Shown: positions 7,558 through 43,609 of the stretch, piece after piece
How positions within the stretch are numbered: the first letter of the stretch is position 1
How the letters are laid out: each line of letters begins with the position of its first letter
Origin: the human T2T-CHM13v2.0 reference genome, Homo sapiens
NCBI RefSeq assembly: GCF_009914755.1
Contig: NC_060934.1
Length of the DNA: 64,000 nt
Direction: 5' to 3' (one strand)
Translations under genes and position numbers: made by a program
Notes under the pieces: model-generated
Databases searched by the model: none
Seen by the model: the letters and a program-made list of their open reading frames with translations, nothing else
What the model was told of the DNA's origin: nothing

Positions 7558-7750
7558 TCCTGAGTGATTAGTGTCTTAGTCTGTTTTGGGCTGCTACTAA
7601 AAATCCCATAGACTGAATATTTGATAAAGAACAGAAATTTATTTCTCACAGCTCTAGTGCCTGGGAAGGCATGAACAGGTGCCTGGTCTCTGCTTCCAAG
7701 ATGGAGTCTTTAACTATGTCCTCTGGAGGAGAAGAATGCTGTCTCAGGTG

Positions 7751-7760
7751 CAAGATGGCC
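7751..7760 (+). promoter_or_regulatory. YY1 site of L1 A internal promoter
   Basis: CAAGATGGCC at the L1 5' end. Confidence 0.8.
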
Positions 7761-8009
7761 GAATAGGAACAGCTCCAGTCTACAGCTCCCAGAGTGAGTG
7801 ACATGGAAGACAAATGATTTCTGCATTTCCAACTGAGGTACTGGGTTCATCTCACTGGGGATTGTCAGATAGTGGGTGCAGGACAGTGGGTGCAGCACAC
7901 CGAGCATTAGCCGAAGCAGGGTGAGGCATTGCCACACCCTGGAAGCGCAAGGGGTCAGGGAATTCCCTTTCCTAGCCAAGGAAAGGGGTGACAGATGGCA
8001 CCTGGAAAA

Positions 8010-39000: not shown

Positions 39001-42000
39001 CAGCACCATGTCGCACTTATTCTAAAATTGACCACATAATTGGAAGTAAAGCACTCCTCAGGAAATGTAAAAGAACAGAAATCACAAAAAACTGTCTCTC
39101 AGACCACAGTGCAATCAAATTAGAACTCAGGATTAAGAAACTCATTCAAAACTGCACAACTACATGGAAACTGAACAACCTCCTCCTGAATGATTACTGG
39201 GTAAATAATTAAATGAAGGCAGAAATAAAGATGTTCTTTGAAACAAATGAGAAAAAAGACACAACGTATCAGAATCTCTAAGACACATTTAAAGCAGCGT
39301 GTAGAGGGAAATTTATAGCACTAAATGCCCACAAGAGAAAGCAGGAAAGATCTAAAATTAGACTATTAAAATAAGATTTTAATTGTGATGTTAGACACCC
39401 TAACATCACAATTAAAAGAACTAGAGAAGCAACAGCAAACACATCCAAAAGCTAGCAGAAGACAAGAAACAACTAAGATTGGAGCAGAACTGAAGGACAT
39501 AGAGACACAAAAAACCCTTCAAAAAATCAATGAATCCAGGAGCTGGTTTTTTGAAAAGATCAACAAAATTGATAGACTGCTAGAAAGACTAATAAAGAAG
39601 AAAAGAGAGAAGAATCAAATAGACGCAATAAAAAAATGATAAAGGGGATATCACCACTGATCCCACAGAAATACAAACTACCATCAGAGAATACTATAAA
39701 CATTTCTACACAAATAAACTAGAAAATCTAGAAGAAATGGATAAGTTCCTGGACACATACACCCTCCCAAGACTAAACCAAGAAGAAGTCGAATCTCTGA
39801 ATAGACCAATAACAGGCTCTGAAATTGAGGCAGTAATTAATAGCCAACCAACCAAAAAAAAGTCCAGGACCAGATGGATTCACAGCCAAATTCTACCAGA
39901 GGTACAAAGAGGAGCTGGTACCATTCCTTCTGAAACTATTCCAATCAATAGAAAAAGAAGGAATCCTCCCTAACGCATTTTATGAGACCAGCATCATCCT
40001 GATACCAAAGCCTGGCAGAGACACAGCAAAAAAAGAGAATTTTAGACCAATATCCCTGATGAACATCAATGCGAAAGTCCTCAATGAAATACTGGCAAAC
40101 CGAATCCAGCAGCACATCAAAAAGCTTATCCACCCCAATAAAGTCGGCTTCATCTCTGGGATGTAAGGCTGGTTCAACAAACGCAAATCAGTAAACGTAA
40201 TCCATCACATAAACAGAACCAATGACAAAAACCACATGATTATCTCAATAGATGCAGAAAGGCCTTTGACAAAATTCAACAGCCCTTCATGCTAAAAACT
40301 CTCAATAAACTAGGTATTGATGGAACATATCTCAAGATAATAACAGCTATTTATGACAAACCCACAGCCAATATCATACTGAATGGGCAAAAACTGGAAG
40401 CGTTCCCTTTGAAAACCAGCACAAGACAAGAATGCCCTCTCTCACCACTCCTATTCAACATAGTGTTGGAAGTTCTGGCCAGGGCAATCAGGCAAGAGAA
40501 AGAAAAAAAGGGTATTCAGTGAGGAAAAGAGGAAGTCAAATTGTCCCTGTTTGCAGATGACATGATTGTATATTTAGAAAACCCCAACGTCTCAGCCCCA
40601 AATCTCGTTAAGCTGAGAATCAACTTCAGCAAAGTCTCAGGATACAAAATCAACGTGCAAAAATCACAAGCATTCCTATACACCAATAACAGACAAACAG
40701 AGAGCCAAATCATGAGTGAACTCCCATTCACAATTGCTTCAAACAGAATAAAATACCTAGGAATCCAACTTACAAGGGATGTGAAGGACCTCTTGAAGGA
40801 GGACTACAAACCACTGCTCAATGAAATAAAAGAGGACACAAACAAATGGAAGAACACTCCATGCTCATGGATAGGAAGAATCAATATAGTGAAAATGGCT
40901 ATAATGCCCAAAGTAATTTATAGATTCAATGCCATCCCCATTAAGCTACCAATGACTTTCTTCACAGAATTGGAAAAAACTACTTTAAAGCTCATATGGA
41001 ACCAAAAAAGAGCCCACATTACAAAGACAATCCTAAGCCAAAAGAACAAAGCTGGAGGCATCACGCTACCTAACTTCAAACTATACTACACAACTACAAT
41101 AACCTAAACAGCATGGTACTGGTACCAAAAGAGATATATAGACCAATGGAACAGAACAGAGGCCTCAGAAATAACACCACACATCTGCAGCCATCTGATC
41201 TTTGACAAACTTGACAAAAACAAGAAACGGGGAGAAGATTCCTTATTTAATAAATGGTGTTGGGAAAACTGGCTAGCCATATGTAGAAAGCTGAAACTGG
41301 ATCCCTTCCTTACACCTTATATAAAAATTAATTTAAGATGGATTGAAGACTTATATGTTAGACTTAAAACCATAAAAACCCTAGAAGAAAACCTAGGCAA
41401 TACCATTCAGGCCATAGGCATGGGCAAGGACTTCATGACTAAAACACCAAAAGCAATGGCAACAAAAGCCAAAATTGACAAACGGGATCTAATTAAACTA
41501 AAGAGCTTCTGCACAGCAAAAGAAACTACCATCAGAGTGAACAGGCAACCTACAGAATGGGAGAAAATTTTTGCAATCCATCCATCTGACAAAGGGCTAA
41601 TATACAGAATCTACAAAGAACTTAAACAAATTTATAAGAGAAAAACAACCCCATCAAAAAGTGGGCAAAGGATATAAACAGACCCATCTCAAAAGAAGAC
41701 GTTTATGCAGCCAACAGACACATGAAAAAATGCTCATCATCACTGGTCATCAGAGAAATGCAAATCAAAACCACAATGAGATACCATCTCAGACCAGTTA
41801 GAATGGTGATCATTAAAAAGTCAGGAAACAACAGATGCTGGAGAGGATGTGGAGAAATAGGAACACTTTTACCCTGTTGGTGGGAGTGTAAATTAGTTCA
41901 ACTATTGTGGAAGACAGTGTGGCGATTCCTCAAGGAACTAGAACTAGAAATACCATTTGATCCAGCAATCCCATTACTGGGTATATACCCAAAGGATTAT

Positions 42001-43609
42001 AAATCATGCTACTCGAAGGACACATGCACACGTATGTTTACTGTGGCACTATTCACAATAGCAAAGACTTGGAACCAACCCAAATGTCCATCAATGATAG
42101 ACTGGATTAAGAAAATGTGGTACATACGCAACATTGTCTACTGTGCAGCCATAAAAAAGGATGAGTTCATGTCTTTTCAGGGACATGGATGAAGCTGGAA
42201 ACCATCATTCTCAGCAAACTAACACAAGGACAGAAAACCAAACACTGCATGTTCTCACTCATAGGTGGGAACTGAACAATGAGAACACTTGGACACAGGG
42301 TAGGGAACATCACACACCGGGGCCTGTCAGGGGGTCAGGGGGCTGGGGGAGGGATAGCATTAGGAGAAATACCTAATATAAATGATGAGTTGATGAGTGC
42401 AGCAAACCAACATGGCACATGTTTACCTATGTAAGAAACCGCACGTTGTGCACATGTACCCTAGAACTTAAAGTATAATAAAAATAAATAAAATAAAATA
42501 AAATAAAATAAAATAAAATTCAGCCATGCTTTAGGTATATCAGTGGTTTATTGTTTCATTATTGTGTAATATTCCATTATATATCACAATTTCTCCATTA
42601 TATTGTTGGACTGTTCCCAGTTTTTGACTATTATGAATAATACTGCTATGACCATCCTTGAACATGTCATTTTGTGGACATAAGCATTCATATCTTTTGG
42701 TTAGGTAACAATGAGTTGAACTTATCAATATGTTTTTGGCTCCTGTCTAAGAAATCTTTATATATTCCAAGGTCATGAAAATATTCTCTGATGTTTTCTT
42801 GTAGAGTGCTTATTGTGTTACACTTCACATTTGGGTTTAAGATCTATCTTGAATAAATTTTTGTGTACAATGTGAAGTAGAGGTCAAGATTCTTTTTGTT
42901 CTTCCAAGTTCTTCCAAGTATCCACTTTACCCATCATTCTTTCTCCCAGTGACTTGTAATACAACCTCTGAGGTAACCATATATACATGGGTGTGTTGCT
43001 GAGATGTCAGTTGCATTCCATCTATCTGCTTATTTGAATGTCATCACCGCACTTTCTTAACCACACTAATTTTATGACTGTAGACATCTAGTAGTTAAAG
43101 CCCTCCATCTGAGTTCTTTAGGACTGGCTTGGCTATTTAGGTCTTCTGTATTTCTATATAAATTTTAGAATTACTTTGTTAATTTTCACAAGTAACCTGT
43201 TAGAATTGTGCTTGAGATATAATTGGATTTATAGACAAATTTGGGCAAAATTGACATTTTAATCTGTGAGTATCATGTTATCACTCGTTTAAAAATTATT
43301 AACTTTAATTTTTCTCAGCAAAGTTTTGCAATTTCAGTGTTAAAATCTTGTGGGTTTTTTGTGAAGTATGTTTCTTGGCCTTTAACTTTTGCGTGTGTGT
43401 GCTATTTTATTGTAGTTTTTATATGGTGTTTCTTTTCTACTTTTTTTAACACGGAGAAATAACATTGATTTTTGTATACTGACCTTGTATCTTGCAACTT
43501 TGCTAAATTCTCTTACTTATTCTCGTAACTTATTTGGAGATTATTTTATACTTTCTCTGTACATGTCATGTCACCTACATCATGCCATCTGCAAATAATG
43601 ATAGCCTTA
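36025..43609 (-). mobile_element. Old L1ME-like fragment hosting L1PA C (pieces 36025-36299 and 42515-43609)
   Basis: Antisense L1 3'UTR/ORF2 remnants continuous across the L1 C TSD. Confidence 0.6.
36300..42514 (+). mobile_element. Full-length LINE-1 C (L1PA6-like); ORF1 (ATG 37334) and ORF2 (ATG 38420) disabled
   Basis: CAAGATGGCC at 36311; (TAAAA)n tail; TSD AAAATTCAG at 36291-36299 and 42515-42523, at a TT/AAAA endonuclease site. Confidence 0.96.

What the first reader, a model, noticed from the sequence alone, without database searches (positions are those of the whole stretch)
7743..42514. Three independently inserted L1PAs share a mosaic of private, inactivating mutations: a local L1-L1 gene-conversion cluster
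Seen: A, B and C have different TSDs and different subfamily-type UTRs, yet share lesions. All three have TGA at the same ORF2 codon just before the RT FADD motif (11914; 23327-23329 minus; 40520) and CAACAGCAAA (KQQQTH; 10829, 24409, 39433), where canonical L1 has KQEQTH. B and C share a 4-bp ORF1 deletion (TTTACAxACAAATG at ~25561 and ~38238; A is intact at 9661), GAAAATAATTTTC, CCCTAAYGCATTTT, CAGTGAGG and GCCCCAAATC. A and C share AAAGTCCTCAAT and GCTTCAAACAG. Known: L1 retrotransposes with cis preference, so a stop codon or frameshift is unlikely to be inherited from an active source element. Inference: repeated post-insertion non-allelic gene conversion among neighbours 7-29 kb apart, in both orientations, homogenising and co-inactivating them.
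Basis: partly seen in the sequence, partly recalled or inferred. Interest (0 to 1): 0.88.

Follow-up and report, generated by a model that had tools for sequence, protein, structure and literature searches.

The report
Neighbouring L1 copies exchanged DNA patches
Three separately inserted L1 retrotransposons lying within 35 kb on human chromosome 10 have copied short stretches of DNA from one another after insertion, and the premature stop codon they share belongs to an unexplained megabase-wide cluster of L1 copies with the same defect.

Summary
A (7746-13930 +), B (21356-27784 -) and C (36300-42513 +) are full-length L1PA copies with three different target-site duplications and unrelated flanks.

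All three carry TGA at one ORF2 codon where unlinked copies have TTA or ATA. Genome-wide, exact 30-mers give TTA 7152, TGA 37.

Some listed variants are not private:
- KQQQTH is the state of older subfamilies.
- Several shared indels are slippage hot spots.
- Overall identity is only 86-88%, so nothing has been homogenised.

One gene-conversion tract is unambiguous. A 12655-12948 and C 41261-41554 differ at 3 of 294 positions. A 46-mer within it, carrying at least five private changes, occurs only in A and C in 3.1 Gb, even with 2 mismatches allowed. Polarity is A to C.

The ORF1 4-bp deletion of B and C has 8 genome-wide hits. Only these two lie near each other.

The TGA allele sits in megabase-scale clusters: 51 copies, with cluster sizes 6, 4, 4, 4, 3, 2, 2. 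The six-member cluster spans 1.1 Mb around this window. The copies lie on at least five subfamily backgrounds and at independent insertion sites.

Ordinary conversion rates do not explain clusters of that size. I read the locus as local L1-L1 gene conversion, plus an unexplained allele-specific spread.

The parts
7746..13930 (+). L1 copy A, full length. Flanked by the 14-bp target-site duplication AAGAATGCTGT[C/G]TC at 7732-7745 and 13931-13944. It has the younger type of 5'UTR. Its nearest unlinked relatives are 94-95% identical.
21356..27784 (-). L1 copy B, full length. Flanked by the 13-bp target-site duplication AATAATAACTGCA at 27785-27797 and 21343-21355. Its 5'UTR has an extra segment of about 250 bp (about 27216-27466) that is typical of its subfamily. 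Its nearest unlinked relatives are 90-91% identical.
36300..42513 (+). L1 copy C, full length. Flanked by the 10-bp target-site duplication TAAAATTCAG at 36290-36299 and 42514-42523. Its 5'UTR is colinear with A's, while its ORFs are of B's general type. Its nearest unlinked relatives are 94-95% identical.
11914..11916 (+). ORF2 nonsense codon TGA in A, on the CAA-TGA background.
23327..23329 (-). The same ORF2 nonsense codon TGA in B, on the CAG-TGA background.
40520..40522 (+). The same ORF2 nonsense codon TGA in C, on the CAG-TGA background.
12655..12948 (+). Gene-conversion tract, copy in A (inferred donor). It differs from C at 3 of 294 positions. It carries 12716T, 12728T, 12739G, 12748T, 12758T and 12832A, which are rare or absent in 29 unlinked relatives and absent in B.
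41261..41554 (+). Gene-conversion tract, copy in C (inferred recipient). C carries none of 20 B-type states here, against 30 of 81 outside the tract.
12082..12188 (+).
40688..40794 (+). Probable second A-C tract, copy in C.
25549..25578 (-). ORF1 site of the 4-bp deletion in B. The deletion removes one unit of a CAAG/CAAA near-repeat.
38228..38257 (+). ORF1 site of the same 4-bp deletion in C. The base 2 bp upstream differs from B.

Best explanation
A, B and C are three independent retrotransposition insertions of different L1PA subfamilies. After insertion they exchanged short patches of DNA by non-allelic (interlocus) gene conversion. In this process a break in one copy is repaired using a nearby homologous copy as template.

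Shown:
- A tract of at most 294 bp was copied from A into C, 28.6 kb away in the same orientation.
- The transfer happened late in the elements' history, because only 3 differences have arisen since.

Probable:
- A second 107-bp A-to-C patch.

Inferred:
- The shared ORF2 stop codon (A, B, C) and the shared ORF1 4-bp deletion (B, C) were passed between the copies by older, very short or patchy conversions whose edges have since been blurred by mutation.
- The stop-codon allele spread unusually well, both locally and in a few other regions, for a reason not yet known. A bias in conversion favouring it is my guess.

The shared lesions did not inactivate the elements. Each already carries many private lesions.
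For: Independent insertions:
- The three target-site duplications are distinct.
- No flank homology exists apart from Alus.
- B has a subfamily-typical extra 5'UTR segment (2122 first-look candidates; all 40 scored hits 85-100% identical, 39 of them outside the window). A and C lack it.
- B and C are not sisters in trees of A-coordinates 8900-10200 and 10200-12240.

The A-C tract:
- In 12640-12940, A-C has 4 mismatches in 301 positions. A-B has 28 and B-C has 28. A against its 29 unlinked relatives has a minimum of 10 and a median of 14.
- Exact A-C matches of 151, 48 and 71 bp lie in 12655-12948.
- The 46-mer 12714-12759, with up to 2 mismatches allowed, occurs exactly twice in the 3.1-Gb genome, in A and in C.

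Polarity and timing:
- In the tract, 0 of 20 B-derived sites are shared by C, against 30 of 81 outside (Fisher p 6e-4).
- In the tract, 5 of 6 A-derived sites are shared with C only, against 1 of 12 outside (p 0.004).
- Only 3 differences have arisen in 287 scored sites since the transfer.

Rarity of the shared lesions:
- Exact 30-mers: TGA 37, TTA 7152, TCA/TAA 114.
- The ORF1 deletion has 8 hits genome-wide, and only B and C lie near each other.

Local relatedness around TGA in three regions:
- 12 of 28 within-cluster pairs share a further rare variant within about 250 bp, against 5 of 63 between-cluster pairs (permutation p 0.0006).

A general proximity effect, pairs within 100 kb observed against expected:
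- TCA/TAA: 5 against 0.47
- 12138C: 5 against 0.27
- GTA: 4 against 0.14

No regional mutation bias was found. T>G is not enriched among private changes of B or C (0.08 and 0.11, against 0.12 pooled) and is 0.16 in A, within the unlinked range. No T[T>G]A context excess is seen.
Against: - Around TGA the copies differ 2 bp upstream (A has CAA; B and C have CAG), and no identical run longer than about 35 bp spans the codon in B-C. Around the ORF1 deletion, B and C differ 2 bp upstream. Neither lesion therefore sits in a visible tract.
- Counts of shared rare variants are only modestly above the null. In 2 kb, A-B has 2, A-C has 3 and B-C has 4. Unlinked pairs have means of 0.4-1.7 and maxima of 4-8. 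B-C has 6 columns, against maxima of 4 and 6 for B or C against unlinked copies.
- B shares 4 identical lesions with the unlinked copy L033, against 5 with C. Several B-C lesions are slippage or CpG hot spots.
- From the excess sharing, I estimate that about 1% or less of private variants pass between a given pair. At that rate, TGA clusters of 4-6 copies are not expected. Plain conversion is therefore insufficient for TGA.
- I had no orthologous primate sequence and no reads. The date and the assembly could not be checked.
Confidence: 0.7

Rival explanations
1. Parallel mutation. TGA, the ORF1 deletion and the other shared changes arose independently in each copy at mutational hot spots. TGA would then need a site-specific process whose rate is high only in certain megabase domains.
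For: - Several shared indels lie in A-runs or short tandem repeats and recur in unlinked copies: the +1 at 11253, the 4-bp difference at 13033 in 2 of 29, and TAA at 10640 in 2 of 17.
- The ORF1 deletion removes one unit of a CAAG/CAAA near-repeat and recurs in 6 unlinked copies.
- B shares 4 lesions with the unlinked copy L033.
- TGA sits on at least five subfamily backgrounds with the neighbouring base differing. Recurrence explains this more simply than tracts do.
Against: - It cannot explain the A-C tract, in which at least five linked private changes are unique to two neighbours.
- TGA is 0.5% genome-wide but 3 of 3 in the window.
- TAA at the same base forms only two close pairs in the listed hits.
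- No T>G excess and no context signature is seen in A, B or C.
- Within-cluster TGA copies share other rare variants nearby, which independent mutation does not predict.
Confidence: 0.15
2. Inheritance from defective progenitors. B, C and other cluster members would be offspring of local L1 copies that already carried TGA and other lesions. Proteins of active L1s would have mobilised them in trans, and they would have reinserted preferentially nearby.
For: - All nine copies examined are separate insertions with unrelated 3' flanks.
- B, C and L061 share CAG, TGA and the 1-bp deletion at 11651.
- Three chromosome-7 copies with TGA are only 2.4-4% apart over 700 bp.
- The megabase scale resembles that of chromatin domains (recalled, not tested).
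Against: - B and C have different 5'UTR structures and are not sisters in two trees, so they are not siblings.
- Each cluster mixes several subfamily backgrounds, which would need several defective sources per region.
- No local reinsertion preference of L1 is known to me (recalled). No other copy in the genome combines the ORF1 deletion with TGA.
- It does not explain the A-C tract.
Confidence: 0.1
3. Artefact or duplication. The similarity would come from segmental duplication of one L1, or from assembly or polishing errors between similar repeats.
For: - Some close pairs in the genome-wide lists lie in duplication-rich regions. Examples are C9 42.29/42.49 Mb, exactly 200 kb apart, and C2 109.6/109.8 Mb. 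I did not check these.
Against: - Target-site duplications are distinct and flanks are unrelated for A, B and C and for six further cluster members.
- The elements are about 8-13% diverged outside the tract, which is too different to be confused by long accurate reads (inference).
- The tract ends at subfamily-diagnostic sites.
Confidence: 0.03

Closest known systems
Non-allelic gene conversion between neighbouring Alu elements (Aleshin and Zhi 2010). I saw it only as summarised in passages of Fawcett and Innan 2019, PMC6598467. The original is not held.
   Same: Dispersed retrotransposon copies exchange short tracts after insertion. This gives mosaics of subfamily-diagnostic sites. The rate rises with proximity and identity.
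   Different: - That work reports elevated rates within less than 10 kb for 300-bp Alus.
- Here the elements are 6-kb L1s that are 11-29 kb apart and about 8-13% diverged.
- One allele here is clustered out to about 1 Mb.
Ectopic gene conversion among human LTR elements (Trombetta et al. 2016, PMC4921805). I read passages only.
   Same: - Short tracts: they report maximum lengths of 14-450 bp with a mean of 99 bp.
- Donors were identified by whole-genome search for the derived haplotype.
- Linked donors were favoured.
   Different: - Their events are polymorphisms on the Y chromosome dated on a tree.
- Here a fixed autosomal event is inferred from one genome, so no date or frequency is available.
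L1-L1 gene conversion reported case by case in primates and mouse. I recall studies of human-specific L1 insertion sites and of break repair from endogenous LINEs. None was seen here.
   Same: An L1 copy is partly overwritten by another L1.
   Different: - As I recall them, those cases are single events, usually with a young element overwriting an old one.
- My five searches found no paper describing regional clusters of one L1 nonsense allele.
- The library lacks most subscription journals.
GC-biased and initiation-biased gene conversion at recombination hot spots (recalled knowledge).
   Same: T to G is a weak-to-strong change. An allele that escapes breakage is always the donor. Either bias could give one allele a transmission advantage.
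   Different: - Neither bias was tested here.
- T to C at the same base is also weak-to-strong but clusters far less: 14 pairs against 3.8 expected, compared with 36 against about 1.

Membership tests
Non-allelic (interlocus) gene conversion between dispersed repeats | Donor and recipient are separate loci, not duplicates of one locus. | tested here: met
   The target-site duplications are distinct. Flanks are unrelated apart from Alus.
Non-allelic (interlocus) gene conversion between dispersed repeats | A bounded tract of near-identity lies within otherwise diverged copies. | tested here: met
   A-C differ at 3 of 294 positions in 12655-12948. The flanking stretches have 23 and 24 mismatches per 301 positions.
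Non-allelic (interlocus) gene conversion between dispersed repeats | Linked private variants in the tract are shared by the two copies and absent from other family members. | tested here: met
   Six variants are rare or absent in 29 relatives and absent in B. The 46-mer with up to 2 mismatches occurs only in A and C genome-wide.
Non-allelic (interlocus) gene conversion between dispersed repeats | Polarity can be read from subfamily-diagnostic sites. | tested here: met
   In the tract C has lost all B-type states: 0 of 20, against 30 of 81 outside (p 6e-4). This points to A as donor.
Non-allelic (interlocus) gene conversion between dispersed repeats | The orthologous recipient in an outgroup lacks the tract. 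| not testable with these tools
   No primate genome is held here.
Non-allelic (interlocus) gene conversion between dispersed repeats | For the shared TGA and ORF1 deletion: a tract with co-converted flanking markers. | tested here: inconclusive
   The copies differ 2 bp from each lesion. Within-cluster TGA copies do share further rare variants within about 250 bp.
Subfamily-diagnostic or ancestral L1PA states | The variant is common in unlinked copies of the same type. | tested here: not met
   This row covers TGA and the ORF1 deletion. TGA is in 1 of 29 and 0 of about 27 sampled copies, and in 37 exact 30-mers against 7152 for TTA. The ORF1 deletion is in 0 of 28 sampled copies and has 8 genome hits.
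Subfamily-diagnostic or ancestral L1PA states | The variant is common in unlinked copies of the same type (KQQQTH, CAG, GCCCCAAATC, 13033 length state). | tested here: met
   The KQQQTH base C is in 6 of 29 copies, five of them with the older ATA codon. CAG is in 5-6 of 27. GCCCCAAATC is in 3 of 27. The 13033 state is in 2 of 29.
Segmental duplication | Homology continues beyond the repeat into the flanks. | tested here: not met
   This was checked for A, B and C and for the 3' flanks of nine TGA copies.
Full-length L1 insertion by target-primed reverse transcription | Target-site duplication, A-rich tail, and 5'UTR-ORF1-ORF2-3'UTR order. | tested here: met
   Subfamily names (L1PA numbers) were not assigned because no reference library was on hand.

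The most novel reading that the evidence does not exclude
One L1 ORF2 nonsense allele (TTA to TGA, just upstream of the reverse-transcriptase active site) has spread directionally among independently inserted L1s of at least five subfamilies. The spread covers megabase-scale domains in about seven genomic regions.

That would be an allele-specific, drive-like conversion among paralogues, not ordinary neutral exchange. Two possible mechanisms:
- The TTA form lies in a break-prone or hot-spot motif and is always the recipient.
- Repair is templated by L1 RNA retained near its source.
Probability: 0.2. Interest if true: 0.85.

Novelty: new variant of a known kind. Interest (0 to 1): 0.62.

Why it matters
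- L1 subfamily assignment, age estimates from divergence, and mutation-rate studies that use L1 copies as neutral clocks all assume that copies evolve independently after insertion. A clean tract between copies 28.6 kb apart and about 8% diverged shows that the assumption fails locally. So does the 10- to 30-fold excess of close pairs sharing rare variants.
- The TGA clusters suggest that one particular allele can sweep through the L1s of a whole chromosomal domain. If confirmed, this would be a handle on long-range template choice or bias in break repair in the primate germ line.
- It would also caution against reading shared lesions as shared ancestry.

Tried and rejected
- **CpG decay of CGA to TGA:** rejected. 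Unlinked copies have TTA or ATA at the codon.
- **Regional T>G mutation bias:** not supported. The second half, on unlinked contexts, crashed and was not repeated.
- **B and C as siblings, or homogenised by one long tract:** rejected by 5'UTR structure and by trees. In the third tree region they pair only because no B-type references were available there.
- **Segmental duplication:** rejected.
- **Lesion-sharing count as proof:** weakened, because B shares 4 lesions with unlinked L033.
- **A-B exchange around KQQQTH (A 10751-10834):** inconclusive. A carries older-type states there that 4-6 of its relatives also carry, and private changes flank the site.

Steps that did not run or gave nothing:
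- Relatives of C and a second set for A could not be fetched. C therefore lacks same-type references beyond A-coordinate 12250.
- Aleshin and Zhi 2010 is not held.
- One search was an empty script.
- The literature searches gave nothing specific on regional L1 homogenisation.
- I could not count how many L1 copies in chr10 21.8-22.9 Mb keep TTA, because listings stop at 100 places.

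
Full report
**What is there.**

A self-comparison of the window finds three full-length L1 copies:
- A at about 7746-13930 (+)
- B at 21356-27784 (-)
- C at 36300-42513 (+)

Each is bracketed by its own target-site duplication:
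- A: AAGAATGCTGT[C/G]TC
- B: AATAATAACTGCA
- C: TAAAATTCAG

Outside the elements only Alu-to-Alu similarity links the flanks.

Overall identity is 86.3% for A-B, 88.0% for A-C and 86.9% for B-C. In 200-column bins through the ORFs, identity mostly lies between 0.85 and 0.95. Nothing has been homogenised.

B's 5'UTR has an extra segment of about 250 bp that A and C lack. That segment is a family feature. A search with it gave 2122 first-look candidates. All 40 scored hits were 85-100% identical over nearly its whole length, and 39 of them lie outside the window.

I did not assign L1PA numbers, because no subfamily reference library was on hand.

**Reference copies.**

The own genome (24 contigs, 3.1 Gb) could be searched. 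I obtained two sets of unlinked copies:
- 29 relatives of A covering A-coordinates about 10200-13600 (L002-L030). I call this setA.
- 29 relatives of B covering about 8840-12250 (L032-L060). I call this setB.

C therefore has no same-type references beyond 12250. Later I fetched only short stretches.

*TGA.* Unlinked copies have TTA (younger types) or ATA (older types) at this codon, so it is not CpG decay of CGA. TGA is in 1 of 29 setA copies (L025) and in none of the setB copies aligned there. Genome-wide, the exact 30-mer occurs 7152 times with TTA, 37 times with TGA and 114 times with TCA or TAA.

*KQQQTH.* The C at 10829 is in 0 of 27 setA copies but in 6 of 29 setB copies. Five of the six carry the older ATA codon; the sixth, L032, is misaligned at that codon. 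It is therefore the state of older subfamilies, and it is odd only in A.

*ORF1 4-bp deletion.* It is in 0 of 28 setB copies. Genome-wide there are 8 hits at up to 1 mismatch. Six are scattered on other chromosomes, and the other two are B and C. The deletion removes one unit of a CAAG/CAAA near-repeat, so slippage can make it. B and C differ 2 bp upstream of it.

*Other listed variants*:
- GAAAATAATTTTC: 1 of 28
- GCCCCAAATC: 3 of 27 setB and 0 of 29 setA
- AAAGTCCTCAAT: 0 of 58
- GCTTCAAACAG: 0 of 55 sampled, with 76 genome-wide hits for its 30-mer

**Lesions.**

I read ORF2 (A-coordinates 9900-13400) in the phase of the unlinked copies:

| Copy | In-phase stops | Frameshifting indels |
|---|---|---|
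| A | 4 | 1 |
| B | 11 | 11 |
| C | 5 | 6 |

TGA is the only lesion shared by all three. B and C also share TAA at 10640, +1 at 11253, a 1-bp deletion at 11651 and a 4-bp length difference at 13033.

Several of these recur in unlinked copies:
- +1 in an A-run at 11253
- the 13033 state, in 2 of 29
- TAA at 10640, in 2 of 17

B shares 4 identical lesions with the unlinked copy L033, against 5 with C in the same interval. Unlinked pairs share 0 (69 pairs), 1 (55) or 2 (12). Lesion counts alone therefore do not prove exchange, and the shared lesions are a minority of each element's damage.

**Shared rare variants against a null.**

In 10200-12250, I counted variants present in at most 5% of 50 unlinked copies. 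Eight copies with under 90% coverage were dropped.

| Pair | Shared rare variants |
|---|---|
| A-B | 2 |
| A-C | 3 |
| B-C | 4 |

Null values from unlinked copies:
- setA x setB pairs: mean 0.41, maximum 4
- setB x setB pairs: mean 1.74, maximum 8

A variant shared by all three occurred in 49 of 5000 random triples.

In 8900-12240, B-C share 6 columns that are absent from 26 setB copies. B or C against unlinked copies has means of 1.4-1.8 and maxima of 4 and 6.

This is suggestive but not decisive. Trees put B with L048/L044 and put C inside a younger clade in both regions that have proper references. B and C are therefore not siblings and were not homogenised by one long tract.

**The decisive tract.**

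A scan for low-mismatch windows found A 12640-12940 against C with 4 mismatches in 301 positions. For comparison:
- A-B: 28
- B-C: 28
- A against setA: minimum 10, median 14
- C against setA: minimum 12
- Flanking stretches of the same length, A-C: 23 and 24

Exact A-C matches of 151, 48 and 71 bp tile A 12655-12948 = C 41261-41554, leaving 3 differences.

Inside the tract, A and C share 12716T, 12728T, 12739G, 12748T, 12758T and 12832A. Each is absent or in at most 1 of 29 setA copies, and none is in B.

The 46-mer 12714-12759, searched with up to 2 mismatches, occurs exactly twice in 3.1 Gb, at A and at C. No subfamily, hot spot or chance can give that.

*Polarity*:
- Of sites where B departs from the setA majority, C shares 30 of 81 outside the tract and 0 of 20 inside (p 6e-4).
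- Of A's departures, 5 of 6 inside the tract are shared with C only, against 1 of 12 outside (p 0.004).

C therefore lost its own type and took A's, including A's private mutations. A is the donor and C the recipient.

*Timing.* Only 3 differences in 287 scored sites have arisen since. C-only changes are 2 of 287 sites inside the tract, against 40 of 1017 outside. The event is therefore late, roughly the last fifth or less of C's residence, with wide error.

The length fits published ectopic tracts among LTRs, which have maxima of 14-450 bp (PMC4921805, passages).

*A probable second patch.* A 12082-12188 is 107 bp identical to C. In it C carries the A-type T at 12133 and A's private 12138C. 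That 30-mer has 76 hits genome-wide, so it is not unique.

**The stop codon is regionally clustered.**

The 37 exact TGA 30-mers are not scattered. With a 17-mer there are 51 copies. Single-linkage grouping at 1 Mb gives cluster sizes 6, 4, 4, 4, 3, 2 and 2, which takes in 25 of the 51 copies.

The six-member cluster is on chr10:
- 21.802 Mb
- A
- B
- C
- 22.766 Mb
- 22.903 Mb

The other clusters lie on chr1 (211.2-212.4 Mb), chr7 (97.8-98.6 and 120.6 Mb), chr9 (15.57-15.92 Mb), chr20 (24.5-25.3 Mb) and chr2 (109.6-109.8 Mb).

I corrected for L1 density using the first 100 TTA places on chr1. The expectation for the 37 exact copies is 0.52 pairs within 1 Mb, and 25 are observed. For the 51 copies about 1 pair is expected and 36 are observed. 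That expectation is approximate, because the 17-mer has a different denominator.

Controls show a weaker version of the same effect, with no cluster above 3:

| Variant | Pairs within 1 Mb, observed / expected | Pairs within 100 kb, observed / expected |
|---|---|---|
| TCA/TAA (100 of 114 hits listed) | 14 / 3.8 | 5 / 0.47 |
| 12138C | 16 / 2.2 | 5 / 0.27 |
| GTA | 5 / 1.1 | 4 / 0.14 |

I did not remove segmental duplications from these lists. Some close pairs may be duplicates.

**What the cluster members look like.**

I fetched 600-800 bp around TGA for 17 further copies.
- TGA sits on at least five backgrounds: B-type CAG, B-type CAA, intermediate, older setA-type and younger setA-type. 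Several backgrounds occur within one cluster.
- The 3' flanks of nine copies (A, B, C, three more on chr10 and three on chr7) are all unrelated beyond the L1 end. They are separate insertions, not duplicates.
- I compared the 14 TGA copies from the chr10, chr9 and chr20 clusters pair by pair. Of the 28 within-cluster pairs, 12 share a further rare variant within about 250 bp, against 5 of 63 between-cluster pairs. The means are 0.46 and 0.08, with permutation p 0.0006. B, C and the copy at 21.80 Mb share CAG, TGA and the 1-bp deletion at 11651.
- There is no regional mutation signature. The T>G share of private changes is 0.16 in A, 0.08 in B and 0.11 in C, against 0.12 pooled. T[T>G]A contexts are 3 of 14, 1 of 16 and 1 of 17 (the unlinked comparison in that script failed).

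**Reading.**

Local DNA exchange between L1 neighbours is shown here for A to C. It also fits the genome-wide proximity effect and the extra sharing inside TGA clusters.

The kind of process is known. Rates rising with proximity and identity have been described for Alu (Aleshin and Zhi 2010, seen only through passages of PMC6598467). Linked donors are favoured for LTRs (PMC4921805, passages).

The size of the TGA clusters is not explained. From I estimate that a given private variant passes between a given pair with a probability of about 1% or less. Clusters of four to six then need a strong advantage for this allele, or a site- and region-specific mutation process.

T to G is a weak-to-strong change, so GC-biased repair could help. 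But T to C at the same base clusters far less.

I hold biased short-patch conversion as most likely, and regional recurrence and local reinsertion of defective copies as rivals. None of these could be tested further with what is held here.

My five searches found no paper describing such clusters. The library lacks most subscription journals, and supplements were not consulted.

**Limits.**
- One genome only, with no primate orthologues and no reads.
- No curated subfamily references.
- C lacks same-type references beyond 12250.
- The density correction rests on 100 copies from one chromosome arm.
- The number of TTA copies inside each cluster region is unknown.

Noticed in passing
genome-wide (lists; counts): Rare single-base variants of L1 ORF2 unrelated to the finding are shared by physically close copies 10-30 times more often than expected within 100 kb, and 4-7 times more often within 1 Mb. 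This is a general proximity effect. Segmental duplications were not removed.
   Followed up: partly
window 13886-13930: After a first short A-run, A continues with about 45 bases of non-L1-like sequence and a second, pure 15-base A-run before its target-site duplication. This may be a short 3' transduction or an interrupted tail.
   Followed up: no
window about 39354-39387 (C, after A-coordinate 10783): C carries a private 34-base AT-rich insertion in ORF2. It is absent from A, B and all 58 unlinked copies.
   Followed up: no
window 10129-10133 in A-coordinates (B near 25100, C near 38700): B and C both have a deletion at the same ORF2 spot but of different lengths: 4 bp in B and 3 bp in C. 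Neighbouring bases also differ. This could be a deletion hot spot or a reworked shared lesion.
   Followed up: no
L082 (C10:22904535-22905685): About 130 bases after the 3' end of the TGA-bearing L1 at 22.903 Mb, the 5' end of another L1 begins. The two L1s lie head to tail.
   Followed up: no
window 14165-15949 and 60813-63224: Older, more diverged L1 fragments, 66-76% identical to A. The second is an inverted pair of pieces meeting near 62454-62460.
   Followed up: no
L072 and L073 (C7:97.790 and 97.818 Mb): Two TGA copies 28 kb apart differ at only 17 of about 700 positions, with a 194-base identical run across the codon. Their 3' flanks are unrelated. This may be another conversion pair.
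   Followed up: partly
L033 (C8:101156010-101159414) against B: B shares four identical ORF lesions with this unlinked copy: two +1 insertions in A-runs, and stops at A-coordinates 10367 and 10628. This shows how far hot spots alone can mimic shared ancestry.
   Followed up: partly
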